Source: Candidatus Pacearchaeota archaeon (GTDB taxonomy: Archaea; Nanobdellota; Nanobdellia; Pacearchaeales; GW2011-AR1). From it: DNA of 64,000 nucleotides. Positions 6,627 to 57,244 of the stretch are shown here, one piece after another (position 1 is the first letter of the stretch; every line of letters starts with the position of its first letter). The notes under the pieces were generated by a model. That model searched no databases and was not told where the DNA came from. It saw only the letters and a list, made by a program, of their open reading frames with translations. A program made the translations under genes and the position numbers. The stretch spans positions 381,624 to 445,623 of the forward strand of contig JBAZYG010000001.1 of the NCBI GenBank assembly GCA_041659445.1, read 5' to 3'.

Positions 6627-7853
6627 ATGAAAAACAAAAAGCAAATGAAAACTAGAAATGTAATGTTTTCTTTAGCTACTCTTGCTATTGCCTTATTTTT
6701 AGTAGCAACTGTTAGTGCTGGTGAAATCACAAACGATTACACTGTTGAAATTGAAAACATCAATGCTTATAACAACGTAGTTAGTGTTGTTGCTGGTGAA
6801 ACAATAAAAATTGAAGTTTACTTCAATTCACTAGTTGATGATTCTGACGTAACTGTTGAAGCAGAAATCGAAGGCGAAAAAGTTAAAGTTGATACAATGA
6901 CAAGTTCTTTCGATGTTGAAGCAGGTTTTGCATACAGAAAAGTTTTGACTTTAAAAGTTCCTTATGAACTTAAAGACCAACTTTCTGATATGGTTTACCT
7001 TAACATTGAAATAGATGGTAAAGACCACAAAACAGAACTTGAACAAGTTAAACTTTTAGTTCAAAGACCTTCATACAACGCAGTAGTGAAATCTCTTTCA
7101 GTTCCTAGTTCAATTGAAGCTGGTGACAAACTTTCAGTTGAATTCGTTCTTAAGAACATGGGATACAATGATTTAGATGATGTTTATGTGAAAGCTAGCA
7201 TTACAGAATTAGGATTAAGTCAAGGACCTGTTTGGGTTGGAGACTTAGTTACTATGGAAGAATGTAACGACGATGATTGTGATAAAGACACTGTTGCTGG
7301 AAAATTATATTTAGATGTTCCATTCAGTGCCAAAGAAGGTGTTTATGACCTTGAATTCACAGTTTACAACGACGACACAGAAACTACTGAAGTTAAGCAA
7401 ATAGTAATCAAGAATGACTTTTCAAACGAAGTTATTGCTACAAACACTGAAAAAACTGTTGCTGTAGGAGAAAAAGCTGATTTTACTTTATTATTAGTTA
7501 ACCCTAGTGATAATGTTAAGGTCTACACAATTTTAATTGAATCTGACGGAATAACAACTGAACTTGAAGAAAGTGTAGTTGCTGTCGGTGCTGGTTCAAG
7601 TAAGACTGTACAATTTTCTGCTTTAGCAAAAAGTGAAGGCTCAAATGACTTCACAGTAAGTGTTCTTTCAAACGGAAAGGTTGTTCAAGTTGTTGACTAC
7701 AATTTAACTGCAGAAGGTAAGAAAGTTAACTCTACAGTTATTTTATCAATAATCTTGGCAATAATCTTTGTAGTATTATTAGTTGTTCTTATTGTTCTAT
7801 TAGCTAAGAAACCAGAAAAAAACACAGAAGACTTTGGTGAAAGTTATTACTAA
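6627..7853 (+). CDS. secreted acidic cell-surface protein with a C-terminal TM anchor (S-layer/CARDB-like)
   Basis: N-terminal signal peptide MKTRNVMFSLATLAIALFLVATVSA; D/E/T/V-rich beta-type repeats; C-terminal hydrophobic helix VILSIILAIIFVVLLVVLIVLLAKK followed by a basic stretch (archaeal surface-protein anchor). Confidence 0.55.
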   Translation: MKNKKQMKTRNVMFSLATLAIALFLVATVSAGEITNDYTVEIENINAYNNVVSVVAGETIKIEVYFNSLVDDSDVTVEAEIEGEKVKVDTMTSSFDVEAGFAYRKVLTLKVPYELKDQLSDMVYLNIEIDGKDHKTELEQVKLLVQRPSYNAVVKSLSVPSSIEAGDKLSVEFVLKNMGYNDLDDVYVKASITELGLSQGPVWVGDLVTMEECNDDDCDKDTVAGKLYLDVPFSAKEGVYDLEFTVYNDDTETTEVKQIVIKNDFSNEVIATNTEKTVAVGEKADFTLLLVNPSDNVKVYTILIESDGITTELEESVVAVGAGSSKTVQFSALAKSEGSNDFTVSVLSNGKVVQVVDYNLTAEGKKVNSTVILSIILAIIFVVLLVVLIVLLAKKPEKNTEDFGESYY

Positions 7854-20138: not shown

Positions 20139-21806
20139 TTAATTTTCGTCACAATTTGTTTCATACATTATTCCATCTGAAAAAGCCATCCAACAATTTC
20201 CAACTGAATAATTTCCTGTCAAACCAATATTATTTTGAGAAATTAAATTTCCTGAGAAAGAAATATCTCCGTTAACATCTAATTCACTTTGAGGAGTTGT
20301 TGTTCCAATTCCAACTTTTCCACCCATAATTGCCATTGTGTTTGCTTGACTTACAATAGTTCCTGATTGATCATTTAACCCTATTCCTACTGAATTACTT
20401 CCTGAAACTTCTATTCCTTTACCCATTGCGACAGAGTAAGGTCCTGATGCAATTGTATTTCTTCCAAAAGATGTTGAAGCTTCTCCAGATGAAACAGTCA
20501 CCAAACCCATTGCTGTTGAACCATAACCTGAAGAAATAGTTCCAGAGCCCATTGCTGTTGAAGCAGTTTCAGATGCAGTTGTAGAATATCCCATTGCTGT
20601 TGAATAATCTCCTAAAGCTTTTGTGTAACCCCCAGTTGACATTGAACTATAACCTGAAGATTCAGTGTATTCTCCCATTGCTGTTGAATAATATTGCGAA
20701 GATTCTGAACCATAACCTGTTGCTGTTGAATAATATCCTGATGAAATTGTTGCACCACCCATTGCAATTGCACCAATTTCAGAGGCTAATGTGCTTGGTC
20801 CTATTGCTGTTGAATATAAATTTGAAGCATTTGCATAATAACCCATAGACATTGAATGCTTATTTGGATTAATTAAAAGAGTATTTTCACCAACATAAAA
20901 ATTTCCTGTAAATTTCCCATCACCGATGACAGTCAATGCATTTTGGGGATTGTTTGTTTTTATTCCAACATTTCCATTATTATTTACAACAAATGCCTTT
21001 GAAGAATTTGCTCCTGGACTAAAATACAAACTTTCATCTCCTGCAGATGTAAAATCTATTTTAAAGATTTCTTTATTTCCAGAACGAATATTAAAACTAT
21101 CTGCTAAAATAAATGCAAGATATCCACCATTGTAATCACCCAAAATAAAATCATTTGTAGAATGAATACTTCCATTAACATCTAAATTATATTGTGGGTT
21201 GCTTGTTCCAATACCAACATTTCCCCCCATAATTGCCATTGTATTTGCTTGAGAAACATTCAAATTATTTTGATCATTCAATGCGATAGCAAAACTATAA
21301 TCTCCTCCTGCAATAATTTCTCTACCCATTGCTGTTGACAAAAACCCAGAAGCTGTTGTTGCAAAACCAGTCGCTGTTGAAGAAGCTCCTGAAGATTTTG
21401 TTAAATCACCTAATGCTATTGAAGAATCTCCTGAAGCATTTGCATAATGTCCTAATGCTATTGAAGAATCTCCTGAAGAGAATGCATGATTCCCAACAGC
21501 TACTGAAGAAGGCCCTAAAGCTGTTGATGAATATCCTAAAGCAACAGAATATAATCCCGAAGCTGTTGAGGTTCCTGATGAAATTGAATAGGTATTTGTA
21601 TTAACAAAAAAATCAGTTCCTCCAACACTGAAATTGTAATCTCCTAAAACAACATTATGATTTGAGCCAACGTAAGGAACATAACTTGAATTATAATTTG
21701 ATGAAATTAATTTATTATTTGTCTTTGCTAAAGAAAAAGAAGATAAACATAAAATCAAGATTAAAACAAAAACCATTCCAAAAAAATATTTATTTTTACA
21801 TTTCAT
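20139..21806 (-). CDS. secreted adhesin-like protein with Hep_Hag/YadA-head-type repeats and tail-fibre-like NVGIGT motifs
   Basis: Signal peptide MKCKNKYFFGMVFVLILILCLSSFSLA; repeated SSIALGHYANASGDSSIALG / SVALGYSSTALGPSSVAVG units (N/S-S-[IV]-A-[LV]-G periodicity); twice-repeated MAIMGG[NK]VGIGT..PQ..LDVNG motif. Confidence 0.6.
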   Translation of the reverse strand: MKCKNKYFFGMVFVLILILCLSSFSLAKTNNKLISSNYNSSYVPYVGSNHNVVLGDYNFSVGGTDFFVNTNTYSISSGTSTASGLYSVALGYSSTALGPSSVAVGNHAFSSGDSSIALGHYANASGDSSIALGDLTKSSGASSTATGFATTASGFLSTAMGREIIAGGDYSFAIALNDQNNLNVSQANTMAIMGGNVGIGTSNPQYNLDVNGSIHSTNDFILGDYNGGYLAFILADSFNIRSGNKEIFKIDFTSAGDESLYFSPGANSSKAFVVNNNGNVGIKTNNPQNALTVIGDGKFTGNFYVGENTLLINPNKHSMSMGYYANASNLYSTAIGPSTLASEIGAIAMGGATISSGYYSTATGYGSESSQYYSTAMGEYTESSGYSSMSTGGYTKALGDYSTAMGYSTTASETASTAMGSGTISSGYGSTAMGLVTVSSGEASTSFGRNTIASGPYSVAMGKGIEVSGSNSVGIGLNDQSGTIVSQANTMAIMGGKVGIGTTTPQSELDVNGDISFSGNLISQNNIGLTGNYSVGNCWMAFSDGIMYETNCDEN

Positions 21807-41369: not shown

Positions 41370-42131
41370 TTATTTATTTTTCAGAATTTCTTGAATCTTG
41401 TTTTTAAAATCTTCAATATTCATTTTTTTAATGTCGCTCTCCCATAACCTAATAACTTTAAATCCTTTTTCTTGTAATTCATTTGTCCTCACATTATCTA
41501 TTTCTCTACCTAAAGGATATTTGTGCCAATAATTTCCATCAACTTCTATTATTAAATTTAAATTTGAAATTAAAATATCACATTGATAACCATGCTCAAT
41601 TTCTTTTATATATTTATGAGTAATAAATTCTATATTTAATTGCTTTAAAAAATTTTGAATTTTAATTTCTGGTTTAGAATCTTTTAAAGGAAAAATTTGT
41701 TTAATCCTTTGATTTTTAATTTTTAAGATTGTCTCTTTTGAATGATGTTTTCCAAACATAGGATGTTTTTCTCCAGAAATTTCAGGAATTTTCTTTCCTT
41801 TATTCCATACATTTTCTCCTTCAAATCTTTTCTTTTGAGAAATACTCATTTTTTTTCTTACTTCTGAACTTAATAAAGTTTTCATTAAAGATATTTTTTG
41901 TTTTTCTATTGTTTCCTTAGAAGGATGCTTTCCAGTCATCCAAGAAGGTTTACCTGTTTTTTTACCTTTATTGCTGGGAACACTACCTTTCTTAAAAATA
42001 CCTTTAAATCCACTCGGAAAATATTTTTTATATTCTTCCCCTTTTAATCCTTTATTCCAAGGTATACTGCCTTTTTTGAATTCTGTTTTTGAAGAAGAAC
42101 GTTCTCCTTTCTTGAATTTAGTATCTATCAT
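41370..42131 (-). CDS. homing-endonuclease-like protein with N-terminal NUMOD3-type DNA-binding repeats and a C-terminal Vsr/DUF559-like PD-(D/E)xK nuclease domain
   Basis: Repeats FKKGSIPWNKGLKG, FKKGSVPSNKGKK, GKHPSKETIEKQKIS, GKHHSKETILKIKNQ (the G-K-H-x-S-x-E-T-x-x-K-I motif of NUMOD3); C-terminal YQCDILISNLNLIIEVDGNYWHKYP...VIRLWESDI resembles the DUF559/Vsr endonuclease core. Confidence 0.6.
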   Translation of the reverse strand: MIDTKFKKGERSSSKTEFKKGSIPWNKGLKGEEYKKYFPSGFKGIFKKGSVPSNKGKKTGKPSWMTGKHPSKETIEKQKISLMKTLLSSEVRKKMSISQKKRFEGENVWNKGKKIPEISGEKHPMFGKHHSKETILKIKNQRIKQIFPLKDSKPEIKIQNFLKQLNIEFITHKYIKEIEHGYQCDILISNLNLIIEVDGNYWHKYPLGREIDNVRTNELQEKGFKVIRLWESDIKKMNIEDFKNKIQEILKNK

Positions 42132-42655: not shown

Positions 42656-42710
42656 CTTCCCCTTCTCCCAACATCGCAAAACTTAAATACTCAAAACATA
42701 TTGGTTTTTT

Positions 42711-42974
42711 GTAGACTAGATCGGCAGGTTAGCCCCCTGCTCATGTGCAAACGGGCTTTATGGCAGACTACGAGTGGAGTGTGATTGAGAAGTCAGGAAG
42801 TCTTTAATCTAACGTTGACGTTTTGTCCGCTTTGATCTTGTAGATGCAAAACGGGTCAGGCCTTGATCGGAGCAGCCCTAAACATGTATTAAGGTGCTTA
42901 GCGGGTCACAAAATCGAGAAGGATTAAGGGTAAGCTTTTTGGTTTTTCTTGAGCTGTCCACTTTGTCTACACTT
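42711..42974 (+). ncRNA. candidate signal recognition particle (7S/SRP) RNA
   Basis: About 260-nt island visibly GC-enriched relative to the AT-rich flanks and free of ORFs; contains GGGU-CAGG-CC-(uugauc)-GG-AGCA-GCCC, which reproduces the SRP helix-8 architecture (symmetric CAGG/AGCA loop, the SRP54 M-domain site, flanked by paired GGGU/GCCC and CC/GG); 5' GUAGAC and 3' GUCUAC ends are complementary. Confidence 0.55.
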
Positions 42975-42990
42975 ATTTTTTATAAGAAAA

Positions 42991-43373: not shown

Positions 43374-43838
43374 TTAACTTATTTTAATTTTTTCCAAAAA
43401 AATATTATAAAAAGAAACCAATGCATTTGATTCTTCTGTGAAAGGAAAAATTACACAAGTTCCTGCATCACACCGTCTATTTTCCCAAGTTCCTTCATAA
43501 AATTTAGTATCTTCCACTCCAAACTTCCAAATTAGATTGTAATTTAAGATAACTTCAGAGCCACCATTTTTTATTGCTTGCTTATTATATTTTTTTCTAA
43601 AATTAAAGCTTTTTTTATCATTTAATGCTCCAAAAAATTCTGCTTCTCCAAATTTATCGATTAATGTTCCTTTTAATTTTTTTCCATTTTGCTCTATAAT
43701 TTTCCCAAAGAAAATGCTACTATCTCTTCCAAGTTCATAATTCCAAAATCCATAAAAGTCGGGTTTTTCATTATTCATATTTTGAAAAACAAAATACAAT
43801 TTAAAAATATAATTATACTTCAAAATATACTTCTTCAC
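43374..43838 (-). CDS. hypothetical protein (154 aa)
   Basis: Complete ORF; no motif recognised. Confidence 0.35.
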   Translation of the reverse strand: MKKYILKYNYIFKLYFVFQNMNNEKPDFYGFWNYELGRDSSIFFGKIIEQNGKKLKGTLIDKFGEAEFFGALNDKKSFNFRKKYNKQAIKNGGSEVILNYNLIWKFGVEDTKFYEGTWENRRCDAGTCVIFPFTEESNALVSFYNIFLEKIKIS

Positions 43839-43871
43839 AATATTAATAAACTTATTTTTTGTATTTATTAT

Positions 43872-44408
43872 ATGAAAAAAAGAGGAAAGGGCGGTCAGTT
43901 TTATCTTGTTGCTGCAATGATTGTTATTGCAGTTATTATTGGAATTTCTTCAATTTCAAATTACTCAAACAAATCAAAAGCAGACAAAGAAATGAAAAAT
44001 TTTGAACAAGAATTAAACACTGAAGTTGAAAAAAATTTAGAATACATAAGTTTGAATTCTTTATCAGACAGTTCAACAAAAAATCTTTGGATAAATCTTA
44101 CAGATAACTATATTACAAAATTAGGAAAAAACAAAGAATCAATTTTTATTTTTGGAACAAAATCACAAATAACTGTCAAAGGATACAAACTGAATAATTC
44201 AAATGATTTGCAAATTAACGTCGGAAGTGGTGTTGAAAGTTTAGCAAGTTCAGAAGGAGAATTTGAAAGGGATTTTAATCCGAGTGTTGAAAACGTGACA
44301 ATTATAAAAGAAAATATTGAATATGTTTTTGATTTAAAGCAAGGACAAAATTTTTATTATCTGATTTCCAAAGAATATAATTCAGAGAGAATAATTATAA
44401 GAAACTAA
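43872..44408 (+). CDS. pilin-like protein with an archaeal class III signal peptide (start trimmed to MKKRGKGGQ)
   Basis: The track ORF starts upstream, but MKKRGKGGQFYLVAAMIVIAVIIGISS is a textbook prepilin-type N-terminus (basic residues, G, then a hydrophobic helix). Confidence 0.55.
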   Translation: MKKRGKGGQFYLVAAMIVIAVIIGISSISNYSNKSKADKEMKNFEQELNTEVEKNLEYISLNSLSDSSTKNLWINLTDNYITKLGKNKESIFIFGTKSQITVKGYKLNNSNDLQINVGSGVESLASSEGEFERDFNPSVENVTIIKENIEYVFDLKQGQNFYYLISKEYNSERIIIRN

Positions 44409-44409
44409 C

Positions 44410-44928
44410 ATGAAAAATAAAAAAGGTGTGAGCGTGATGATTGGTTATGTTTTGCTAGTTGCATTAGTAGTAGTCATGGCTGGAATAGTTTATGTTTATT
44501 TGAGAACTTATATTCCAAAAGACTTGCCTGCATGCCCTGAAGAAACTTCATTATTCATAAAAGAAAAATCTTGCTCAAACGGAATTTTAAATATAACTAT
44601 AAAAAATAATGGCAAATTCAGCGTCGGAGGTTATTATATTTATGCTTCAAATGTTTCAAGTGCAGAAATTGCAACAATAGATTTGTCAAAGCAATTAAAT
44701 TCTGGAATTGATAATCAATATACTTATTTCAATTCTGTAATTTTTAATATAAGCACTAACAATACTCTTGATCCTGGAAATGAAATTATAAATAGTTTTG
44801 ATTTAAATCAATCAATAAATTTCATTGAAATAATTCCTGCGAGGTTTGAATCACAAGGAAAAAATGTCAAATTAGTTAGTTGTGGAAATTCAAGAATAAA
44901 AGAAATTGTAACTTGCTTGATTGTATAA
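44410..44928 (+). CDS. pilin-like protein (class III signal peptide)
   Basis: MKNKKGVSVMIGYVLLVALVVVMAGIVYVYL. Confidence 0.55.
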   Translation: MKNKKGVSVMIGYVLLVALVVVMAGIVYVYLRTYIPKDLPACPEETSLFIKEKSCSNGILNITIKNNGKFSVGGYYIYASNVSSAEIATIDLSKQLNSGIDNQYTYFNSVIFNISTNNTLDPGNEIINSFDLNQSINFIEIIPARFESQGKNVKLVSCGNSRIKEIVTCLIV

Positions 44929-44959
44929 TATTTAAAAATATAGAAGATTTAGAATAAAA

Positions 44960-45418
44960 ATGAACAAAAGAGGTTTGTCATCAGTTATTGCAACAATGCT
45001 TTTAATTACAATAACAATTGTCATTGCATTAATTGTATTTTTATGGTTTAGAGGAATTCAAGAAGAAGCAATTACAAAATTCGACGGAGTTAATGTAAAA
45101 GTAATCTGCGATGAAGTTCAATTTGATGCAGATTATTCTAATGGAGCAATGTATATTGTTAATACAGGAGATGTTCCAATTTATAAAATGGAAATAAAAG
45201 AAGTTGGTGAAGGATATTATGAAACACAAACTCTTGAAAATAATTGGCCAGAATTAGGATTGACACAAGGTGGAGCTTTTCAAGGAAATTATGCTCCTTT
45301 AGGTGAATCTTATTCTATAGAAAGAATTGTTTTAATTCCTGTTTTAATTGGCCACACTGAACAAGGAGATACAATCTATACATGCGATGAAAAAAATGGT
45401 TATGAAATAATTTTATAA
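44960..45418 (+). CDS. pilin-like protein (class III signal peptide)
   Basis: MNKRGLSSVIATMLLITITIVIALIVFLWF. Confidence 0.6.
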   Translation: MNKRGLSSVIATMLLITITIVIALIVFLWFRGIQEEAITKFDGVNVKVICDEVQFDADYSNGAMYIVNTGDVPIYKMEIKEVGEGYYETQTLENNWPELGLTQGGAFQGNYAPLGESYSIERIVLIPVLIGHTEQGDTIYTCDEKNGYEIIL

Positions 45419-45419
45419 A

Positions 45420-45914
45420 ATGAAAAATAAAAAGGCATTATCTCAAGTTGTTTCAATAATGATCATTCTTCTTTTAGTTTTTGCTGTTGGTGGAATTGTT
45501 TTTGTTTTTGTAAAAAATTTTGCAAATAAAAACCTCAATAAAACAAGTTCTTGTTACAACATTTACGAAAAAATTACATTAAATAATGATTTTACTTGTT
45601 ATAATTCAACTGGGCAATATGTTCAATTTTCAATTTCTAGAAAAGAAATAGAATTAGACTCTTTAATAATTTCAATCACATTCGAGGAAAATTCAAAAAC
45701 TTATTCTTTGACAAATCTTTCACAAAATGTTAGTGGATTAAGTTCTTCTCTAAATGGTGAATTTGCTGTCAATCTTCCTGGAGAAAATAGTGGAAAACCA
45801 TATTATGCAACAAACATTACTGAGCAACCTTTAACAATTGAAATTGCTCCAATAATTAACAATCATAATTGCAACAAGATTGACGAAATTTTAGATATTC
45901 CTATTTGTTTTTGA
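45420..45914 (+). CDS. pilin-like protein (class III signal peptide)
   Basis: MKNKKALSQVVSIMIILLLVFAVGGIVFVFV. Confidence 0.55.
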   Translation: MKNKKALSQVVSIMIILLLVFAVGGIVFVFVKNFANKNLNKTSSCYNIYEKITLNNDFTCYNSTGQYVQFSISRKEIELDSLIISITFEENSKTYSLTNLSQNVSGLSSSLNGEFAVNLPGENSGKPYYATNITEQPLTIEIAPIINNHNCNKIDEILDIPICF

Positions 45915-45961
45915 ATATTAAACATTAACTATTTAAATAAAAAATAATTCTTTATTAGGAG

Positions 45962-46486
45962 ATGGTGATAACAAAAAAAGCACAAGTTTGGATTGAAACA
46001 GTAACTTATATTTTAATTGCATTTGCATTAATTGGTTTAATTTTAGCATTTGCAAGACCAAAAATTCAGGAATACCAAGACAAATCAATTCTAGAGCAGT
46101 CATCAAAAATGATGAAAGTCTTAGACGAAACAATAAGAGAAGTTGGTAATGAAGCTGTTGGAAATAAAAGAAATATTGATTTAAGAGTTCGAAAAGGAAC
46201 TTTGGAAATTAATCCGCAAAATAATACTCTGACTTTTATTATGGATAGTAAATATATTTATAGCGAATTGGGAAAAACAATATCTGAAGAAAATTTATTT
46301 GTTACAACAACTGCTAAAGGAAAGTTTAATGAAGTTAAAATGTATTTAAATTACACTGGAGAATATGACTTACTTCAAAATAATTTAACAGAAACAAAAA
46401 TACTTACAACATCGTCAACAGATTATGATTTATATATTTCAAACAAAGGAGGTTCACCAATACAAATAGATATTGAAATAGATTAA
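45962..46486 (+). CDS. pilus/archaellum accessory protein with an N-terminal TM anchor (FlaF/FlaG-like position)
   Basis: VWIETVTYILIAFALIGLILAFA then a soluble beta-rich domain; sits immediately upstream of the ATPase. Confidence 0.4.
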   Translation: MVITKKAQVWIETVTYILIAFALIGLILAFARPKIQEYQDKSILEQSSKMMKVLDETIREVGNEAVGNKRNIDLRVRKGTLEINPQNNTLTFIMDSKYIYSELGKTISEENLFVTTTAKGKFNEVKMYLNYTGEYDLLQNNLTETKILTTSSTDYDLYISNKGGSPIQIDIEID

Positions 46487-46487
46487 A

Positions 46488-48047
46488 ATGCCAACAAAAA
46501 GAATAGGAATTCAAGATTATCCTCAAGTTGCTATTGATTTTTCACCAAGAATTCCAAAATTAAAAAAACAACGAGACAAATCTAAAATAAATGTAAGATA
46601 TTGTTTAATTTCTCCTTTCACATATGTCCATATTTATTGGAATCCAGAAGATTATGAAGTTGCATATGATATAGAAGAACCAATTTTAGATAAAAATGAA
46701 ACAAGATACCTTGAGCAAATTATTTCTGCAATGAAAGATATGATTGATTTTAATGAAATTATTCGAAAAAGCAAAGATTCATTGTTTGAATATATTGATA
46801 AAAGATTTAAAATATTGGCAATTGAATTAGGTTTAGATATTTCTTATGAAAGTTATAAAAAATTATTTTATTATTTATGCAGAGATTTTGTTGGATTTAA
46901 TGAAGTAGAACCTTTATTGAGAGATTATTTTGTCGAGGATATAGAATGTAATGGAGCAAACACTCCTATTTATATTGTTCACAGAGTTTTTAGAAATTTA
47001 AGAACAAACATTAAATTTGAAAGTAATTCAAGATTGGAAAGTTTTGTAGAAAAACTTGCACAAAGATGTGGAAAGTATATTTCATATGCAAAACCAATTT
47101 TAGATGCAAGTTTGCCAGATGGTTCAAGAGTTAATGCAACTTATACAAAAGATATTACAAGTAAAGGACCAACTTTTACAATTAGAAAATTCACTAAAAA
47201 ACCATGGACACCTCCTCAATTAGTTGCATTTAATACTTTAAGTCCTGAAATGCTTGCTTATTTATGGTTACTTGTCGAATATAAAATGAACGTTCTTATT
47301 ATTGGGGGAACGGCCTCAGGTAAAACCACTTTGTTAAATGCTATTGCGTTTTTTATTCCACCAGAAGCAAGAGTTGTAAGTATTGAAGATACTCGTGAAT
47401 TAAATTTACCTAGGGAAAACTGGTTGCCAAGTGTTTCGCGTTCTGCTATTGGAATTGGAAACATGGGTGAAATTGATTTGTATGATTTACTTAAAAGTTC
47501 ATTCAGACAAAATCCAGATTATGTAATTGTTGGTGAAGTTAGAGGTAAAGAAGCAAGTGTTTTATTTCAGGGAATGGCTTCAGGACACTCATCTATTAGT
47601 ACAATCCACGCTGATTCTGTTGAAACAGTTATAAAAAGATTAGAAACTCCTCCTATTGAACTTTCTCCAACTCTGTTAAATGTTCTAGACAGTGTTTGTA
47701 TTATGACTCATGCAATTGTAAATAAACAAGAAACAAGAAAATTAAGGGAAATTGTTGAAATTGTAAATGTAACTCCAGACGGAATAGCGTTAACAAATAC
47801 CCCGTTTAAATGGAATTCAAGAGAAGATGTATTTTATTTTAAAAAAGAAAGTAAATTATTTGAAAAAATTTCCAAAAGGTATGGTATAACAACAGAAGAA
47901 TTAGTTAAAGAATTTCAATTAAGAACAATTTTATTATATAAAATGTATGAAAATAAAATATTTGATTTTGACGATGTTCAAACAATCATAAATGAATATT
48001 ATAAAAGACCTGACGAAGTTTTAAAAAAATTTCAAGTAATTAAATAA
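46488..48047 (+). CDS. type IV pilus/archaellum-family secretion ATPase (FlaI/PilB/TadA/VirB11 superfamily)
   Basis: Walker A VLIIGGTASGKTTLLNAIAFFIP, SIEDTRELNL (Asp box), Walker B DYVIVGEVRGKEA, His box SSISTIHADS. Confidence 0.8.
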   Translation: MPTKRIGIQDYPQVAIDFSPRIPKLKKQRDKSKINVRYCLISPFTYVHIYWNPEDYEVAYDIEEPILDKNETRYLEQIISAMKDMIDFNEIIRKSKDSLFEYIDKRFKILAIELGLDISYESYKKLFYYLCRDFVGFNEVEPLLRDYFVEDIECNGANTPIYIVHRVFRNLRTNIKFESNSRLESFVEKLAQRCGKYISYAKPILDASLPDGSRVNATYTKDITSKGPTFTIRKFTKKPWTPPQLVAFNTLSPEMLAYLWLLVEYKMNVLIIGGTASGKTTLLNAIAFFIPPEARVVSIEDTRELNLPRENWLPSVSRSAIGIGNMGEIDLYDLLKSSFRQNPDYVIVGEVRGKEASVLFQGMASGHSSISTIHADSVETVIKRLETPPIELSPTLLNVLDSVCIMTHAIVNKQETRKLREIVEIVNVTPDGIALTNTPFKWNSREDVFYFKKESKLFEKISKRYGITTEELVKEFQLRTILLYKMYENKIFDFDDVQTIINEYYKRPDEVLKKFQVIK

Positions 48048-48103
48048 AATGAAAAAACTAAAAATAAATTTGGGTAAACTTCATTTTTCAAAAAACCAAT
48101 AAA

Positions 48104-48268
48104 ATGAGAAAAGAGGAAATACTTTACTTAGGACAATTATTTGAAATTCTTGAGGATAAAATAAAAAGATTAAAAGAATCATACGAAAATAAAGAAGTTC
48201 TAAAATTTAATTCTTTAAAAAAGGAAATAATTCAAATCCATGAAAAAATATCTGAAACAATAAAATGA
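48104..48268 (+). CDS. small coiled-coil protein (54 aa), below ORF-track cutoff
   Basis: Hand translation MRKEEILYLGQLFEILEDKIKRLKESYENKEVLKFNSLKKEIIQIHEKISETIK*; its stop overlaps the ATG of the next gene (atgA). Confidence 0.25.
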   Translation: MRKEEILYLGQLFEILEDKIKRLKESYENKEVLKFNSLKKEIIQIHEKISETIK

Positions 48269-49623
48269 TTAAAAAAAAAGAATATCCCTTTGAAAAAATA
48301 CAGAATTTGATTGAAAAACAAAATAAATTATTAGAAGAACTAAAAAAATTTTCTTTTGAAATGTATCGAAACAAATATGGTGAATCTGAAAAAACAATGA
48401 TTTCTCAAAGGATGGACAAAATAAAAGATACAATAAAACTTCAGAACAATCAATTAATAGAAGAAATAAAAGGAATAAACCTTGCAAAAGAACTTGGCCT
48501 ACCTGAAGAAGTAATAAAAACCACTCCTAAGAACTTTTTAAACTCAAAGCCTAAAGAAAGTGCATACGAGGATAGAGAAGATGAATCTTTGAAATTTAAA
48601 GGAGGAAAAATTTACAATACTAAAGAATTGTCTGTGAAAGGCCTTGAAAAAGAAACAATAGTAAGATTGAGAGAAGCAAAGAAAAAAGTTGAAAAAATTA
48701 AACACGAAAAAATAAAAACAAAATCAAAATATTCAGAACTCTCAAGTAAATTATTCTCAAAGGTTTCAAAAAAACTTTTAGGAAATGAATCTTTTAAAAA
48801 ATTACAGGAAAATTTGATTAAAGCAAATTTAGATTATTCTCCTACAGGATATATTTCTTTTATTTTATTTACTACTTTGATTTCAGTTTTTGTATCTATT
48901 TTTGTTATGCTTTTTTTCTTGTTTTTTAATATCGAGGCAATTTCACCATTTATAACAAGAACTAGCGAAGAAGTTTTAATTCGTCTTGGAAAAGTAATTT
49001 GGATTGTTATAGTTGCTCCAGTCGGAACTTTTTTCACATTATATTTTTATCCTAGTCTTGAAAAAAAATCAGCAGAATATAAGATAGACACAGAATTACC
49101 TTTTGCAACAATTCATATGGCTGCTATCGCAGGTTCGATGATAAACCCTGTAAAAATATTTGAAATTTTAATAACAACCAAAGAATATAAAGCTCTTGAA
49201 AAAGAATTTACAAAATTATTAAATGAAATAAATATTTATGGTTCAGATTTGGTTAATGCTTTAAAAAATACTGCAAAAAATACTTCTAGTAAAAGACTTT
49301 CAGAATTATTAAACGGATTATCTACAAATATAAGTTCTGGTGGAGACTTGCCGAGTTTTTTTGAAAAGAGATCTGAAACTTTATTATTTGAATACAGAAT
49401 TCAGAGGGAAAAAGCAACAAGAGGTGCAGAAAGTTTTATGAATATTTATATAAGCATGGCAATCGCATCTCCAATGATTTTAATGCTCTTATTAATGATG
49501 TTGAAGTTAAGTGGTCTTGGATTAAGTACTCCTGCATCAACACTAACTTTAATTATGGTACTTGGAGTTGTTGTGCTTAATGCTGTTTTAATAACTTTTT
49601 TGCACTTAAAAAAACAAAAATAA
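48265..49623 (+). CDS. pilus assembly platform membrane protein, FlaJ/TadC/PilC-like (first half)
   Basis: Cytoplasmic coiled-coil N-terminal domain, then a TM block with a T2SS-F-like organisation; adjacent to the ATPase as in archaeal pilus/archaellum operons. Confidence 0.5.
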   Translation: MIKKKEYPFEKIQNLIEKQNKLLEELKKFSFEMYRNKYGESEKTMISQRMDKIKDTIKLQNNQLIEEIKGINLAKELGLPEEVIKTTPKNFLNSKPKESAYEDREDESLKFKGGKIYNTKELSVKGLEKETIVRLREAKKKVEKIKHEKIKTKSKYSELSSKLFSKVSKKLLGNESFKKLQENLIKANLDYSPTGYISFILFTTLISVFVSIFVMLFFLFFNIEAISPFITRTSEEVLIRLGKVIWIVIVAPVGTFFTLYFYPSLEKKSAEYKIDTELPFATIHMAAIAGSMINPVKIFEILITTKEYKALEKEFTKLLNEINIYGSDLVNALKNTAKNTSSKRLSELLNGLSTNISSGGDLPSFFEKRSETLLFEYRIQREKATRGAESFMNIYISMAIASPMILMLLLMMLKLSGLGLSTPASTLTLIMVLGVVVLNAVLITFLHLKKQK

Positions 49624-49624
49624 A

Positions 49625-50482
49625 ATGGAACTAAAAAAAATACATTTAATCTCTGCATTAGTAGCGTTTGCATTAATTGCAATTGGATATTTTTTAGCAA
49701 GTAAAAAACTTTTTCCTTTAATTGCTGGAATTGGTGCATTAATTGGATTTGCTCCGTTTTTAATTACATTAATGAAAGAAATTAAAACTGCTTCTGAAAA
49801 AGAAGAAATGTTTTTGGAATTTGCTAGAAATCTCGTCGAGAGTGTTAAAACAGGAACTCCAATAAGTAAAAGTATTGTAAACATGAGCAATAAAAATTAT
49901 GGTGCCTTAACAGAGCATATTCAAAAACTAGCAAATCAAATTTCGTTAGGTATTCCCTTAAATAAAGCCTTGGATGTTTTTTCAAAAGATGTAAAAAATA
50001 AATCTATTTCACGTTCATTAACTTTAATTGGACAAGCAGAAAGAGCTGGAGGAGAAATTGGAGAAATACTTGAATCTGTTGCAGGAGCTGTTAGCATTTC
50101 AGATAAATTAAAAAAAGAAAGAAAAGCTTCAATCTCTACATTAGTTTCTCAAGGATATATTATTTTCTTGGTTTTTATTGTAATAATTTTAGTTATGCAA
50201 TATCAAATAATTCCAATGGTTTCTGGAATAGCAAATGTCCAAGATTTGGGGTTAGCGGGTTTTGGAGTTTCAAAAGTTAGTAATTATCAACAAGTTGAGC
50301 AAAGACAAATTTCAAATTCATTTTTGTATTTAATTTTAACACAAGGCTTTTGCGCAGGACTTGTTATTGGTAAAATTTCAGAAGGAAGCATTAAAGCAGG
50401 AATTAAACATTCTTTTTCCTTAATGTTTTTGTCTTTCTTAATATCTGCAATAGCAAATGCTTTGTTATCTAAAGGAGGATAA
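49625..50482 (+). CDS. pilus assembly platform membrane protein, FlaJ/TadC-like (second half)
   Basis: N-terminal TM pair, cytoplasmic helical domain (LANQISLGIPLNKALD... resembles the T2SS-F domain), C-terminal TM block; 1 nt after the previous stop. Confidence 0.5.
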   Translation: MELKKIHLISALVAFALIAIGYFLASKKLFPLIAGIGALIGFAPFLITLMKEIKTASEKEEMFLEFARNLVESVKTGTPISKSIVNMSNKNYGALTEHIQKLANQISLGIPLNKALDVFSKDVKNKSISRSLTLIGQAERAGGEIGEILESVAGAVSISDKLKKERKASISTLVSQGYIIFLVFIVIILVMQYQIIPMVSGIANVQDLGLAGFGVSKVSNYQQVEQRQISNSFLYLILTQGFCAGLVIGKISEGSIKAGIKHSFSLMFLSFLISAIANALLSKGG

Positions 50483-54712: not shown

Positions 54713-57244
54713 TTAATTGTTAATTGAATTCACTTTAGATATTTTTTGCTCAAATAATTTTTTCTCAGAAGATGAAACTTCTAATATATACATTCCATTT
54801 GCTAAATTAGACAAATCAAATTCAACATCTTTATTTCCAGGATAAATTTCTTCTTTAAAATAATCTACTAATCTCCCAGACATTTCATAAACTTCTGCAT
54901 AAATTTTTTCTGGTTTTGAAACTTCATAATTAAATTTTATTTTTCCTGAAGCAGATGGATTTGGATAAACTTTAAATTTGTCCTCGAGAGTTTTTGGTTT
55001 TTCAGGAACTCCAATTGAAATATCTTCAGTAATATATTGAGAAGTATCTGGTGCAGGAGTTCCACAAATATCATATGAAGACCAATGTCTTTCCCATAAC
55101 CTATAAACATTTGGAATTTCTTCAATTAATTCATCTGTATAATTAACTTCTGGAACAACATTTGAGATAGTATCGTCTGCAACTGCCCAACCTAAATCCT
55201 CTGGAGCCATACTTTCTCCTGTTTTTATTGTTGTGTCTGCTGGAACAAATGCCCAATAAGGAGGTTCTGTTTCAACGACGCTGACATGTTGATTTTGCTG
55301 AATTGAATTATAACAAATTGTATCATTTGCATTATGAGCCCAATCAAATTCATAATTATAATGTTGACAATCAGTTGAATCTGGATTTTGGGTTGAATTT
55401 ATTTTAGATGGATCTTCTTCGACAATTACTTCAATTCCAGTTGGATTAAATGCAGTAGGTAATCCACCTGTTTGTGAAGTAGTTATATTCGGAGAATAAT
55501 TTATTTGTGCATTTGCTGGAAAAGATGCCCATTGATGAATATCTAAATAAACGTCTCTAGAATAAGTTGTATCTGTAAAATTACCAGTTGGGTCTTGAGC
55601 ATGATCTGTAAATTGTTGAGTGAAATTATAATAATTGCATGAGTCAGGACTTAAACCTTGCGTTGAAGTTTCAGAAATTCTTGTTACAATTTCGTGTCCT
55701 GAATTATCGTCGGCATCTGCTAAAGGAACAGGTATTGCTTGGGTAAATGGAACTGGACCTGAAACATAAATATTAGTTATTTCTGGATTTTCTGTATCTC
55801 TTACTGAAATTAATTGTGCAGGCTTATTTGGGAAATGCACATTATCTATTGTTCCATAAGTTGTATCAATTAAAACATTTTCAAGAGATTTTCCAAACCA
55901 GTCTCGATAAATGTCAAAATTGTAATAAGTTGAATCCCAAACTGTTCCTGATTGATTTGAACTATCTGAATAAATTGTATATGACCAAGGAGCATTTCCT
56001 GTAACTTCTCCTGTATTTTCTGGAGCTGTTAAATTTGAATTTTGAGAATATTCAATGTCGATGTTTGAAGGCATTTGCCCTCCGACATGAACGTGATTGC
56101 ATTCTTCTGGTTTATTAACAATTAAATCAGGATGTTGCCAAATTAATGTTGCATTTCCATTTTGCAAATCAAATTTAGCAATTGTATTTAAAGTATACAC
56201 GTATTGGCCCAAATTTGAATTATAATAATAAGCATATTTTTTTATATGGGCATAACTATCAGGATGCATGCTTGGACTTCCTAGTGTAACTATTTGATCA
56301 TTTTGAGGTTCAACAAAAACCCAATCATTAAAATTTGTCGAACTATTTCCTTTTAAAAATGCATTAATTGAATGTAAAATATTTGGAGAAGTATACATTG
56401 TGCTAACAATATAAAATGGTTCATTAAATCTTGCATTTTGAGTTGTATCATAAATTGAAAAATCTATACCAGAATTTTCAATATTTTCAATTCCAGATTT
56501 ATTTATTTGAGTTTGCATAGAATATTGATTACAATCCCAATTTGGTCCTGGAGCATGAAGATTTGTTAAATCAATTGCTTGAGTTTTTTGGTCCCAAAAT
56601 TCTTTTTCAGAAGATGTTAAAAAATTCCAATGACTAGGCAAATAAGGAATTTCATCTGTTAAGTAATTGTAAATTAATTGAGAATCTAATGTATTTGTAA
56701 CTTGATCTCCATTTATATCTGTTCTATCGTTGGAAGTTCCAGAGATTATTAAATTATAATCTTGCCAATTTAAAACATTATCGTCATTTGCATCACCAGA
56801 ACCATAATAACTTAAATCAAAATTTCCAGCATTTAATAAATTTGGTTGAATAAATGGATTCAAATATTGATCCCCATAAAAAGAATTTACATTGTCTGTT
56901 GAATTTGAATTTTCATATTCTTTGTTGATGATTTCAGAAGCTCTTTCAGAATAATAAACTCCTTCACTAGGAGAATAAGCTAAATTTTTATCAATTGCTT
57001 CAGATAGAGTTATATAATCAATAATTTTTTTTTCAAGATTTAAATTTACCTCTTTTAAATTATCAAAATTAATTTCAGGAACATTAACTGAATTAATTAC
57101 TGGAACTTTAAATTCTTCTGAAACTAAGGATTTTTCTTTATAAGGAATATTTTCATTTTGAGAATATGTAAAACTAGGAAGTACAGAAATTCCTGTTGCA
57201 ACTAATCCAATACCAATATTTTTTAATTTATTTGCTTTTTTCAT
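54713..57244 (-). CDS. large secreted protein with dockerin-like calcium-binding repeats and a C-terminal T9SS-type (Por_Secre_tail-like) sorting domain
   Basis: Signal peptide MKKANKLKNIGIGLVATGISVLPSFTYSQ; GDANDDNVLNWQDYNLII and DINGDQVTNTLDSQLIYNYL (dockerin-type D-x-N-x-D pairs); C-terminal about 85 aa KVYPNPSASGKIKFNYEVSKPEKIYAEVYEMSGRLVDYFKEEIYPGNKDVEFDLSNLANGMYILEVSSSEKKLFEQKISKV matches the T9SS CTD pattern. Confidence 0.55.
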   Translation of the reverse strand: MKKANKLKNIGIGLVATGISVLPSFTYSQNENIPYKEKSLVSEEFKVPVINSVNVPEINFDNLKEVNLNLEKKIIDYITLSEAIDKNLAYSPSEGVYYSERASEIINKEYENSNSTDNVNSFYGDQYLNPFIQPNLLNAGNFDLSYYGSGDANDDNVLNWQDYNLIISGTSNDRTDINGDQVTNTLDSQLIYNYLTDEIPYLPSHWNFLTSSEKEFWDQKTQAIDLTNLHAPGPNWDCNQYSMQTQINKSGIENIENSGIDFSIYDTTQNARFNEPFYIVSTMYTSPNILHSINAFLKGNSSTNFNDWVFVEPQNDQIVTLGSPSMHPDSYAHIKKYAYYYNSNLGQYVYTLNTIAKFDLQNGNATLIWQHPDLIVNKPEECNHVHVGGQMPSNIDIEYSQNSNLTAPENTGEVTGNAPWSYTIYSDSSNQSGTVWDSTYYNFDIYRDWFGKSLENVLIDTTYGTIDNVHFPNKPAQLISVRDTENPEITNIYVSGPVPFTQAIPVPLADADDNSGHEIVTRISETSTQGLSPDSCNYYNFTQQFTDHAQDPTGNFTDTTYSRDVYLDIHQWASFPANAQINYSPNITTSQTGGLPTAFNPTGIEVIVEEDPSKINSTQNPDSTDCQHYNYEFDWAHNANDTICYNSIQQNQHVSVVETEPPYWAFVPADTTIKTGESMAPEDLGWAVADDTISNVVPEVNYTDELIEEIPNVYRLWERHWSSYDICGTPAPDTSQYITEDISIGVPEKPKTLEDKFKVYPNPSASGKIKFNYEVSKPEKIYAEVYEMSGRLVDYFKEEIYPGNKDVEFDLSNLANGMYILEVSSSEKKLFEQKISKVNSINN

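What the first reader, a model, noticed from the sequence alone, without database searches (positions are those of the whole stretch)
42711..42974. GC-rich ORF-free island with an SRP helix-8 signature: probable 7S/SRP RNA
Seen: an about 260-nt segment clearly richer in G+C than its surroundings, with no ORF. It contains GGGU CAGG CC uugauc GG AGCA GCCC, i.e. paired GGGU/GCCC and CC/GG arms around the symmetric CAGG/AGCA internal loop, and complementary termini GUAGAC...GUCUAC. Established: the CAGG/AGCA symmetric loop in helix 8 is the universally conserved SRP54 M-domain binding site (E. coli 4.5S GGUCAGGUCC-GGAA-GGAAGCAGCC), and archaeal SRP RNAs are about 300 nt with paired 5'/3' ends. Caveat: the apical loop is 6 nt rather than a GNRA tetraloop, and I could not map the Alu-domain helices by eye.
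Basis: partly seen in the sequence, partly recalled or inferred. Interest (0 to 1): 0.5.

Follow-up and report, generated by a model that had tools for sequence, protein, structure and literature searches.

The report
Archaeal SRP RNA lacking helix 6
This is the signal-recognition-particle RNA gene of a tiny DPANN (Pacearchaeota) archaeon: an ordinary housekeeping RNA, except that it and its relatives have lost the side helix that normally docks protein SRP19, so it looks like a Bacillus-type SRP RNA and falls below the standard database threshold.

Summary
Rfam Archaea_SRP matches it end to end (81 bits, E 1.9e-18 locally, 1.7e-16 over the whole window). That is below the curated threshold (96.5), so a standard scan reports nothing. 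An alignment with 17 related Pacearchaeota/Woesearchaeota loci supports the SRP fold: 95.5% of cells paired versus 38-49% in slid controls, and 47 of 78 pairs with compensatory changes, including the Alu-domain loop-loop contact. A TATA-like box sits 22-28 nt upstream in all relatives with upstream sequence.

This holds in all 27 DPANN loci from species-representative genomes, and in 53 metagenome RNAs chosen only by an Alu-domain motif (250-271 nt). A Poseidoniales control keeps helix 6 (304 nt). The 6-nt apex (U-UGAU-C) is a URRU-type loop, known in bacteria.

Whether SRP19 was lost too could not be tested. Verdict: a real, functional SRP RNA, and a new variant of a known kind.

The parts
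42676..42689 (+). Putative archaeal promoter: an A-rich BRE-like stretch (GCAAAAC, 42676-42682) followed by a TATA-like box (TTAAATA, 42683-42689), 22-28 nt upstream of the G of GUAGAC.
   Evidence: A TATA-like box (CTTAAATA, TTTATAAA or CTTAAAAA) sits at the same offset in the window and in all 20 relatives with upstream sequence. Promoter function is inferred from position and consensus; it has not been shown.
42709..42972 (+). SRP (7S) RNA gene. These are the limits of the Rfam match; from the helix-1 5' strand to its 3' strand is 42711-42970 (260 nt).
   Evidence: RF01857 Archaea_SRP, 81 bits, E 1.9e-18, model positions 1-317 of 317; E 1.7e-16 over the whole window. Relatives measure 255-260 nt and 250-271 nt.
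42711..42716 (+). Helix 1, 5' strand (GUAGAC). It pairs with 42965-42970 (GUCUAC).
   Evidence: 6 pairs, 100% paired in 18 sequences, 3 pairs with compensatory changes (helix 1).
42719..42769 (+). Alu (small) domain. Helix 2 is 42719-42722/42766-42769. Helix 3 is 42723-42728/42736-42741. Helix 4 is 42746-42748/42763-42765. The tertiary loop-loop pairing is AGCCC 42731-42735 with GGGCU 42753-42757.
   Evidence: Helices 2-4 are 91-100% paired with compensatory changes. The loop-loop pseudoknot is 100% paired, with CG->UA double changes at two positions.
42772..42846 (+). Helix 5, 5' strand. It includes the conserved internal loop around UGA (42810-42819) and the invariant UGUC (42824-42827). It runs without a branch into the proximal stem of helix 8.
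   Evidence: Helices 6-11 are 88-99% paired, and 34 of their 48 pairs have double changes. UGA to GUCAGG is 39-40 nt in 25 of 27 DPANN loci, against 79-82 nt in most Poseidoniales loci. Helix-6 model positions are deleted in Rfam's alignment.
42847..42882 (+). Distal helix 8, the predicted SRP54 M-domain site. Asymmetric loop: CAAAAC 42847-42852 / UAAA 42879-42882. Stem: GGGU/GCCC. Symmetric loop: CAGG 42857-42860 / AGCA 42871-42874. Stem: CC/GG. Apex: UUGAUC 42863-42868 (URRU-type).
   Evidence: GGUCAGGCC and GGAGCAGCC are invariant in 18 sequences and aligned to the model's CAGG/AGCA. Apex classes are listed. SRP54 binding is inferred from the established role of this motif.
42883..42963 (+). 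Helix 5, 3' strand. It includes GGG(U) at 42904-42907 and the invariant GAG (42916-42918) opposite the UGA loop. The base of helix 5 is GAGUGGA 42772-42778 pairing with UCCACUU 42957-42963.
42965..42970 (+). Helix 1, 3' strand (GUCUAC).
   Evidence: helix 1.
42976..42981 (+). Run of six T, 4 nt after the end of the match; a likely archaeal oligo-T termination signal.
   Evidence: Read directly from the sequence. Most relatives have a T-run within about 15 nt of the 3' strand of helix 1. Function is inferred.

Best explanation
Window 42709-42972 (+) encodes the signal recognition particle RNA of a Pacearchaeota (DPANN) archaeon, in a reduced form.

Architecture. It has the archaeal terminal helix 1, a complete Alu domain (helices 2-4 with their loop-loop contact), a long helix 5, and a helix 8 with the universal CAGG/AGCA symmetric loop and an asymmetric loop. 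It has no helix 6. Helix 5 therefore stacks directly onto helix 8 as one unbranched rod, the layout of Bacillus-type 'large bacterial' SRP RNA.

Inferred mechanism, from the established roles of these motifs:
- The SRP54 M domain binds the helix-8 loops without help from an SRP19/helix-6 clamp.
- The apical loop, here U-UGAU-C rather than GNRA, serves as the initial docking point for the SRP54-FtsY NG complex.
- The conserved internal loops of helix 5 (UGA/GAG, UGUC/GGGU) serve as the distal site.
- The Alu domain reaches the ribosome.

Transcription probably starts about 25 nt downstream of a conserved TATA-like box and probably ends at the T-run after helix 1.

Shown here: the identity of the RNA, its fold, the absence of helix 6, and that the absence is shared by all relatives sampled. 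Inferred: protein binding, promoter and terminator function, and co-loss of SRP19.
For: 1. Full-length match to RF01857 at E 1.9e-18 / 1.7e-16. It is the best family of the SRP clan and the only SRP hit in the window.

2. On a structure-blind MAFFT alignment with 17 relatives, the canonical SRP fold gives 95.5% paired cells, against 38-49% when partners are slid. 47 of 78 pairs have compensatory changes, and 0 of 500 shuffles reach any measure. The Alu loop-loop pseudoknot covaries.

3. Helix 6 is absent. Rfam's alignment deletes the helix-6 positions in the window, and it deletes 38 positions in a 146.7-bit relative. A Poseidoniales control keeps helix 6 (304 nt). UGA-to-GUCAGG spacing is 39-40 nt against 79-82 nt. 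Every nucleotide of that stretch is paired across the rod with covariation (helices 10-11).

4. The loss is shared by all relatives sampled and does not depend on how loci were chosen: 27 of 27 DPANN loci selected by the apex pattern, and 53 of 53 measurable RNAs selected only by an Alu-domain motif (250-271 nt).

5. Archaeal context: archaeal type IV pilins, pilus ATPase, RtcB. The adjacent protein is annotated from a Candidatus Pacearchaeota MAG. A TATA-like box is conserved at a fixed offset.

6. Two relatives pass the Bacteria_large_SRP threshold, which independently shows the bacterial-like architecture.
Against: - The score is below Rfam's curated threshold (81 against 96.5 bits).
- The helix-8 apex is not the GRRA tetraloop reported for all archaeal groups in PMC2905702, and the UGUNR motif is absent.
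- No expression data and no protein-binding data are available.
- The genome beyond 64 kb could not be read. A second, canonical SRP RNA elsewhere and the status of SRP19 therefore remain open.
- Single-sequence MFE folding gave the clean rod in only 7 of 18 Pace-type RNAs. The unbranched fold rests on comparative evidence, not on thermodynamics.
Confidence: 0.93

Rival explanations
1. It is a canonical archaeal SRP RNA of about 300 nt with helix 6 (the form the first reader had in mind), and the missing helix is an alignment artefact.
For: The family match is to Archaea_SRP. The 2010 review found helix 6 in every archaeal group then known (PMC2905702).
Against: The RNA is 260-264 nt. Only 39-40 nt separate the helix-5 UGA from helix 8, and all of them pair with the 3' strand and covary. 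Rfam deletes the helix-6 positions here and in a 146.7-bit relative. The Poseidoniales control shows the method does detect helix 6 when it is present.
Confidence: 0.02
2. It is a bacterial 'large' SRP RNA (Bacillus type), present through horizontal transfer or because the contig is bacterial or chimeric.
For: The architecture is the same: Alu domain + helix 5 + helix 8, no helix 6. Two relatives pass the Bacteria_large_SRP gathering score and one passes Bacteria_small_SRP. The same UUGAUC apex occurs in Acholeplasma and Phycisphaerae.
Against: - For the window, Archaea_SRP is the best family of the clan, and no bacterial SRP family reaches its threshold.
- Helix 1, the archaeal 5'/3' terminal helix, is present and covaries.
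- An archaeal TATA-like box is conserved upstream.
- The flanking genes are archaeal.
- Related DPANN RNAs with a GGAA apex score 107-147 bits on Archaea_SRP and also lack helix 6. This links the Pace-type form to the archaeal family by descent.
Confidence: 0.03
3. It is a decaying SRP RNA pseudogene, and the functional SRP RNA lies elsewhere in the genome.
For: The score is sub-threshold, one helix is lost, the apex is non-canonical, and only 64 kb of a contig of at least 486 kb could be examined.
Against: 47 of 78 pairs show compensatory changes across 18 species-level genomes. The SRP54-site nucleotides are invariant. The promoter is conserved. Length is uniform, 250-271 nt in 53 metagenome copies. 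All of this indicates purifying selection on a working RNA. There is no second SRP hit in the window.
Confidence: 0.02
4. It is another structured RNA (RNase P RNA or an unknown ncRNA) that happens to contain a CAGG/AGCA-like motif.
Against: A permissive scan of all 4227 Rfam families gives only Archaea_SRP here. The other matches in the local scan are at E 0.14 or worse and lie outside or at the edge of the RNA. The match covers the whole SRP model, not just helix 8.
Confidence: 0.005

Closest known systems
Archaeal SRP (7S) RNA, Rfam RF01857 Archaea_SRP
   Same: Terminal helix 1, Alu domain with helices 2-4 and a loop-loop contact, long helix 5 with conserved internal loops, and helix 8 with the CAGG/AGCA symmetric loop and an asymmetric loop. 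Archaeal host and promoter. Full-length model match at E 1.9e-18.
   Different: No helix 6 (the SRP19 site); 260-264 nt instead of about 300-317. The helix-8 apex is U-UGAU-C, not GRRA. No UGUNR motif. The score of 81 bits is below the gathering score of 96.5.
Bacterial large SRP RNA (Bacillus subtilis scRNA type), Rfam RF01854
   Same: Overall architecture: Alu domain + helix 5 + helix 8 as one rod, without helix 6 and, in bacteria, without SRP19. Two close relatives pass this family's threshold.
   Different: This RNA has helix 1, scores best on the archaeal model, sits in an archaeal genome behind an archaeal-type promoter, and is connected by intermediates to archaeal SRP RNAs. The similarity is best read as convergent reduction.
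Bacterial SRP RNAs with URRC/URRU apical loops (described in PMC4091067)
   Same: The helix-8 apex is N-URRY-N instead of GNRA. The identical hexamer UUGAUC is found in Acholeplasma and Phycisphaerae loci, and UUAACC/GUAACU in Planctomycetes.
   Different: Those are bacterial 4.5S-type or large RNAs. For archaea, the 2010 review (PMC2905702) lists only GRRA loops.
Permuted, circularised SRP RNA of Thermoproteus (PMC4731332)
   Same: Another non-canonical archaeal SRP RNA that standard gene finders missed.
   Different: That RNA keeps all helices, and the genome keeps SRP19; the gene order is rearranged. Here the gene is colinear and one helix is gone.

Membership tests
Archaea_SRP (RF01857) | Score at or above Rfam's curated gathering score (96.5 bits) | tested here: not met
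   81 bits, so nothing is reported at the gathering threshold. The E-value is nevertheless 1.9e-18 / 1.7e-16.
Archaea_SRP (RF01857) | Helix 8 with the conserved symmetric loop CAGG/AGCA (SRP54 M-domain site) and an asymmetric loop | tested here: met
   CAGG 42857-42860 / AGCA 42871-42874. The flanking GGGU/GCCC and CC/GG stems are invariant in 18 sequences. CAAAAC/UAAA occupies the asymmetric-loop position.
Archaea_SRP (RF01857) | GRRA (mostly GGAA) tetraloop closing helix 8 | tested here: not met
   The apex is UUGAUC (U-UGAU-C) at 42863-42868. 20 of 27 related loci share it, 1 has UUGACC, and 6 have GGAA with an A-U or G-C closing pair.
Archaea_SRP (RF01857) | Helix 6 with a GNAR tetraloop (SRP19 binding site; adenosine clamp with the helix 8 loop) | tested here: not met
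   The model's helix-6 positions are deleted. Spacing is 39-40 nt against 79-82 nt in Poseidoniales. The helix 5-to-8 pairing is continuous and covaries. The control with helix 6 was detected.
Archaea_SRP (RF01857) | Helix 1: pairing of the 5' and 3' ends | tested here: met
   GUAGAC/GUCUAC, 6 bp, 100% paired, 3 pairs with compensatory changes.
Archaea_SRP (RF01857) | Alu domain: helices 2, 3 and 4 with tertiary pairing between the loops of helices 3 and 4 | tested here: met
   Helices 2-4 are 91-100% paired with compensatory changes. AGCCC/GGGCU is 100% paired, with CG->UA double changes at 2 of 5 positions.
Archaea_SRP (RF01857) | UGUNR motif between helices 3 and 4 | tested here: not met
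   The window has CUCAUG at that position, and the clade consensus is UAUUU. The GGAA-apex relative L034 keeps UGUAA. PMC2905702 lists several archaeal orders that lack this motif, so it is not strictly defining.
Archaea_SRP (RF01857) | 5e motif / conserved internal loops of distal helix 5 | tested here: inconclusive
   UGA (42816-42818), GAG (42916-42918), UGUC and GG are invariant and align to the model's uGA / CGuCC / GGgu positions. I did not verify the 11-nt definition of the 5e motif base by base.
Archaea_SRP (RF01857) | Partner proteins SRP54 and SRP19 encoded in the genome | not testable with these tools
   Only 64 kb of the genome is available. An SRP19 profile finds nothing in 254 kb of window plus DPANN loci, which has no statistical power. 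The word-indexed database search reached only Methanococci, Archaeoglobi and vertebrates.
Bacteria_large_SRP (RF01854) | Alu domain + helix 5 + helix 8, no helix 6 | tested here: met
   Relatives L015 (71.4 bits) and L040 (60.2 bits) pass this family's threshold of 60.
Bacteria_large_SRP (RF01854) | Score at or above the family's gathering score, and the best family of the clan | tested here: not met
   No SRP family is reported for the window at gathering thresholds. Archaea_SRP is the best-scoring family of the clan.
Bacteria_large_SRP (RF01854) | Bacterial host; no terminal helix 1 | tested here: not met
   Archaeal gene context and a Pacearchaeota source. A TATA-like box is conserved upstream. 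Helix 1 is present and covaries.

The most novel reading that the evidence does not exclude
The Pacearchaeota/Woesearchaeota radiation has discarded the SRP19-helix 6 module altogether. It would then run a two-component SRP (SRP54 plus a helix-6-less RNA with an intact Alu domain). That would be the first archaeal lineage without SRP19, a natural counterpart of the Haloferax SRP19 deletion, and a convergence on the Bacillus-type particle. Part of the clade has also replaced the GNRA receptor-docking loop with a URRU loop.
Probability: 0.45. Interest if true: 0.55.

Novelty: new variant of a known kind. Interest (0 to 1): 0.4.

Why it matters
**Annotation.** At curated Rfam thresholds the window and 12 of 15 close relatives show no SRP RNA at all, and 3 are labelled as bacterial SRP RNAs. 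A universal RNA is therefore being missed or mislabelled in a large archaeal radiation. A dedicated covariance model would fix this.

**Evolution.** Helix 6 and SRP19 have been described as present in every archaeal group examined (PMC2905702). Loss of helix 6 in every sampled member of a lineage with small genomes shows that this module is dispensable in nature. That agrees with the Haloferax SRP19 deletion result cited in that review. It also shows reductive evolution arriving at the Bacillus-type architecture independently.

**Mechanism.** The adenosine clamp between the helix 6 and helix 8 tetraloops cannot exist here. The clade contains both GGAA and URRU apices on otherwise similar RNAs. 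This makes it a natural series for asking what the helix-8 loop is needed for once the clamp is gone, for example FtsY docking.

**Limits.** The gene itself is an expected housekeeping gene, and the link to SRP19 is untested.

Tried and rejected
- **Synteny route.** Looking up the adjacent 137-aa protein returned only contigs of the same strain, with one A/G difference in the shared part of the SRP RNA region (in L002). This was useless for covariation. More distant homologues (P0002-P0006) were not followed once the DNA pattern scan had given relatives directly.
- **Single-sequence MFE hairpin counting as a helix-6 test.** Too noisy for these AU-rich rods: only 7 of 18 Pace-type RNAs give the clean rod. 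I used only the control result, namely two capped hairpins at fixed positions in Poseidoniales and no recurrent second capped hairpin in DPANN RNAs.
- **SRP19.** A verified SRP19 alignment searched against the protein database reached only Methanococci, Archaeoglobi and vertebrates, because of the word index and the 120-row listing. A local SRP19 HMM found nothing in 254 kb, which has no power. I therefore make no claim either way.
- **Literature searches.** Six searches for a helix-6-less archaeal SRP RNA or for SRP19 loss in DPANN found nothing relevant. One long paper that contains both terms is held only in part.
- **First regex on the metagenome loci.** It required CAGG...AGCA and missed genuine variants such as CAGACC and longer apical stems. 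I replaced it with a length measure that does not depend on the apex.
- **Covariance model.** I did not build a full-length model. A model of about 260 positions would probably exceed the calibration limit, and the MAFFT-based counts were already decisive.
- **Sigma-70 promoter and intrinsic-terminator scan.** Not used, because it does not apply to archaea.

Full report
**1. Observation**

Window 42709-42972 has G+C 0.458, against 0.264 in the flanking 2 kb and 0.271 for the window. No ORF of 30 aa or more lies in 42675-42893. The motif GGGU-CAGG-CC-UUGAUC-GG-AGCA-GCCC is at 42853-42878. The complementary ends GUAGAC and GUCUAC are at 42711-42716 and 42965-42970.

**2. Identity**

- A default Rfam scan of the window at gathering thresholds reports only four tRNAs.
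- A permissive scan finds Archaea_SRP (RF01857) at 42709-42972 on the + strand, covering model positions 1-317. It scores 81 bits with E 1.9e-18, against a gathering score of 96.5.
- Over the whole window and all 4227 families the E-value is 1.7e-16. It is the best RNA hit in the window, and there is no second SRP copy.
- The genes around it are archaeal: archaeal type IV pilins, a pilus ATPase and membrane protein, RtcB, and aminoacyl-tRNA synthetases.
- NCBI annotates the adjacent 137-aa protein from a Candidatus Pacearchaeota MAG, on a contig of 486,529 bp.

**3. Relatives and covariation**

I scanned species-representative genomes with a helix-8 pattern that excludes the canonical CCC-GGAA-GGG apex. 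It returned 119 loci. Of these, 27 are DPANN-type. Most are labelled Pacearchaeota, Woesearchaeota, Nanoarchaeota or Nanoarchaeia; four carry other labels.

I aligned the window and 17 full-length relatives with plain MAFFT (A2).

- RNAalifold predicts 72 pairs, 42 of them with compensatory changes.
- I then wrote the canonical SRP fold by hand on the same alignment: helices 1, 2, 3, 4 and 5/8, plus the pseudoknot between the helix-3 and helix-4 loops.
- That fold gives 95.5% paired cells, against 38-49% when partners are slid by 1-3 columns.
- 47 of 78 pairs have changes on both sides, 174 cells in all.
- 0 of 500 shuffles reach any of the five measures.
- The loop-loop contact AGCCC/GGGCU is 100% paired, with CG->UA double changes at two positions.

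This is strong comparative support for a functional SRP RNA with an intact Alu domain.

**4. Gene ends**

In the window and all 20 relatives with upstream sequence, a TATA-like box preceded by an A-rich stretch sits 22-28 nt upstream of the G of GUAGAC. In the window the box is TTAAATA at 42683-42689. From the 5' strand of helix 1 to its 3' strand is 255-260 nt in the window and the 15 relatives where both strands were found by exact match. A run of six T follows at 42976-42981. Promoter and terminator function are inferred, not shown.

**5. Helix 6 is absent**

- Rfam's alignment of the window deletes the helix-6 positions.
- In the best-scoring relative (L034, Woesearchaeota, 146.7 bits), 38 model positions are replaced by one nucleotide.
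- A Poseidoniales control (L009, 304 nt, 123.9 bits) aligns with helix 6 populated and capped by GGAA.
- The distance from the conserved helix-5 UGA to GUCAGG is 39-40 nt in 25 of the 27 DPANN loci. L041 has CGA in place of UGA, and L036 is cut too short. In Poseidoniales the UGA that Rfam aligns to this motif in L009 lies 79 nt upstream, and most of the other loci list one at 79-82 nt.
- In the window, every nucleotide of that stretch (42827-42846) pairs with the 3' strand (42883-42904), and those pairs covary (helix 11).

The apex-based scan could have biased the sample. To check, I used the one metagenome scan with a motif from the helix-4 loop of the Alu domain, which is independent of the S domain. 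Of 73 SRP-like loci, 53 had measurable ends, and all are 250-271 nt (mode 259-260). Where the sequence runs through the S domain with a normal helix 8, the tight UGA...UGUCC...GGGUCAG arrangement is the same whatever the apex. The exceptions are L211 and L220, described in section 10. Helix-6 loss is therefore a property of every relative sampled.

**6. The apex**

CC-UUGAUC-GG fills the same 10 nt as the canonical CCC-GGAA-GGG. Among the 27 genome loci, 20 have UUGAUC, 1 has UUGACC, 5 have AGGAAU and 1 has GGGAAC. The metagenome set adds UUGAAC, CUGAUC, UUGAUU and longer stems capped by GGAA.

The same N-URRY-N hexamers occur in bacterial SRP RNAs: UUGAUC in Acholeplasma and Phycisphaerae, and UUAACC or GUAACU in Planctomycetes. 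URRC and URRU loops are described as alternatives to GNRA in bacteria (PMC4091067). The 2010 archaeal review lists only GRRA (PMC2905702).

Both apex types occur on helix-6-less RNAs. The Pace-type locus L050 carries AGGAAU. The apex change is therefore a separate event from the loss of helix 6, and probably a later one (inference).

**7. Consequences for annotation**

At gathering thresholds none of 15 Pace-type relatives is called Archaea_SRP. Two are called Bacteria_large_SRP (71.4 and 60.2 bits), one is called Bacteria_small_SRP, and 12 get no SRP call. The five GGAA-apex relatives pass Archaea_SRP at 107-147 bits although they lack helix 6.

**8. Mechanism**

The following is inferred from established knowledge of SRP. 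SRP54 binds the symmetric and asymmetric loops of helix 8. In canonical archaeal and eukaryotic SRP, SRP19 binds the tips of helices 6 and 8, and an adenosine clamp joins the two tetraloops (PMC2905702). Here the clamp cannot form, and helix 8 stacks on helix 5 as in Bacillus-type RNA. Archaeal SRP54 binds SRP RNA without SRP19, and SRP19 is dispensable in Haloferax (PMC2905702, PMC6098224). A two-component particle is therefore plausible.

**9. What could not be tested**

Whether SRP19 is lost as well could not be tested. The SRP19 profile search reached only close relatives of the queries. A local scan of 254 kb found nothing, which has no power. I found no paper that describes an archaeal SRP RNA without helix 6, or loss of SRP19 in DPANN archaea. 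That search covers open-access literature only.

**10. Side observations**

- One metagenome relative (L211) carries an insertion of about 640 nt inside helix 8. It encodes a LAGLIDADG endonuclease (PF14528, 41.2 bits) and is flanked by a bulge-helix-bulge-like structure. Cutting 2 nt into each bulge would restore a normal CAGG-CUG-GGAA-CAG-AGCA helix 8. This looks like an archaeal intron in an SRP RNA gene.
- Another relative (L220) lacks the tip of helix 8.
- Four records labelled 'bacterium' (two of them), Omnitrophota and Methanosarcinales carry DPANN-type SRP RNAs.

**11. Verdict**

The gene is an ordinary, expected housekeeping gene. Its form is not described in the literature I could search: no helix 6, a URRU apex, about 260 nt, shared by all sampled relatives, and below the curated detection threshold. 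I rate it a new variant of a known kind, of moderate interest.

Noticed in passing
L211 (metagenome contig), - strand of the locus; insertion about 970-1620 in locus coordinates: An SRP RNA gene of the same clade is interrupted inside helix 8 (…GGUCAGGCUGGGAACAGAG | … | CAGCCAUUAGC…) by about 640 nt encoding a 211-aa LAGLIDADG endonuclease (PF14528, 41.2 bits; PF00961, 23.9 bits). The insertion ends are complementary. A 4-bp GAAC/GUUC helix between two bulges resembles an archaeal bulge-helix-bulge splice site, and cutting 2 nt into each bulge restores CAGG-CUG-GGAA-CAG-AGCA. This is a possible homing-endonuclease intron in an SRP RNA gene.
   Followed up: partly
L220 (metagenome contig): An SRP-RNA-like gene with a normal Alu domain and proximal helix 5, but the whole helix-8 tip is missing (…UUGAUGCUUUGUCUGCUUAGCUUUUUAAUUAUCUUUGAUUCUAC). 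It could be a deletion, a pseudogene or an assembly artefact.
   Followed up: no
Many metagenome loci, e.g. L137, L159, L167, L170, L194, L226: A common variant has CAGACC…GGAGCA: G->A at the fourth position of the 5' side of the 'universal' CAGG symmetric loop. The rest of helix 8 is unchanged.
   Followed up: no
L014, L039, L067, L070 (Acholeplasma/Mollicutes); L027, L076, L102, L116 (labelled Phycisphaerales, Phycisphaeraceae or Planctomycetota): Bacterial SRP RNAs carry the identical or nearly identical helix-8 apex hexamer (UUGAUC, UUGAUU, UUGAGU) seen in the Pacearchaeota RNA. Other Planctomycetes have UUAACC, UUAACU or GUAACU. This looks like convergent use of an N-URRY-N apex.
   Followed up: partly
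L021, L049, L113, L107: Records labelled 'bacterium' (L021, L049), 'Candidatus Omnitrophota bacterium' (L113) and 'uncultured Methanosarcinales archaeon' (L107) carry DPANN-type helix-6-less SRP RNAs. This suggests mislabelled or misbinned contigs.
   Followed up: no
L100 (Bremerella sp. JC770), 6975-6997 and 7108-7130: Two helix-8 motifs lie 133 nt apart on the same strand. They may be tandem SRP RNA copies or a duplicated S domain in a planctomycete.
   Followed up: no
window 41370-42131 (-): A 253-aa protein with a NUMOD3 motif and a DUF559 / REase_MTES_1575 endonuclease-like C-terminal domain, about 580 nt upstream of the SRP RNA gene. It looks like a free-standing homing-endonuclease-type gene.
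   Followed up: no
window 54713-57244 (-) and 20139-21806 (-): Large proteins in this archaeal window carry domains better known from bacteria: an 843-aa protein with a Por_Secre_tail (type IX secretion C-terminal sorting) domain, and a 555-aa protein with YadA head repeats.
   Followed up: no
window 43689-50482 (+): A cluster encoding several small proteins with archaeal type IV pilin N-termini, followed by a T2SSE-family ATPase (46488-48047) and a T2SSF-family membrane protein (48265-49623). This is an archaeal type IV pilus locus immediately downstream of the SRP RNA.
   Followed up: no
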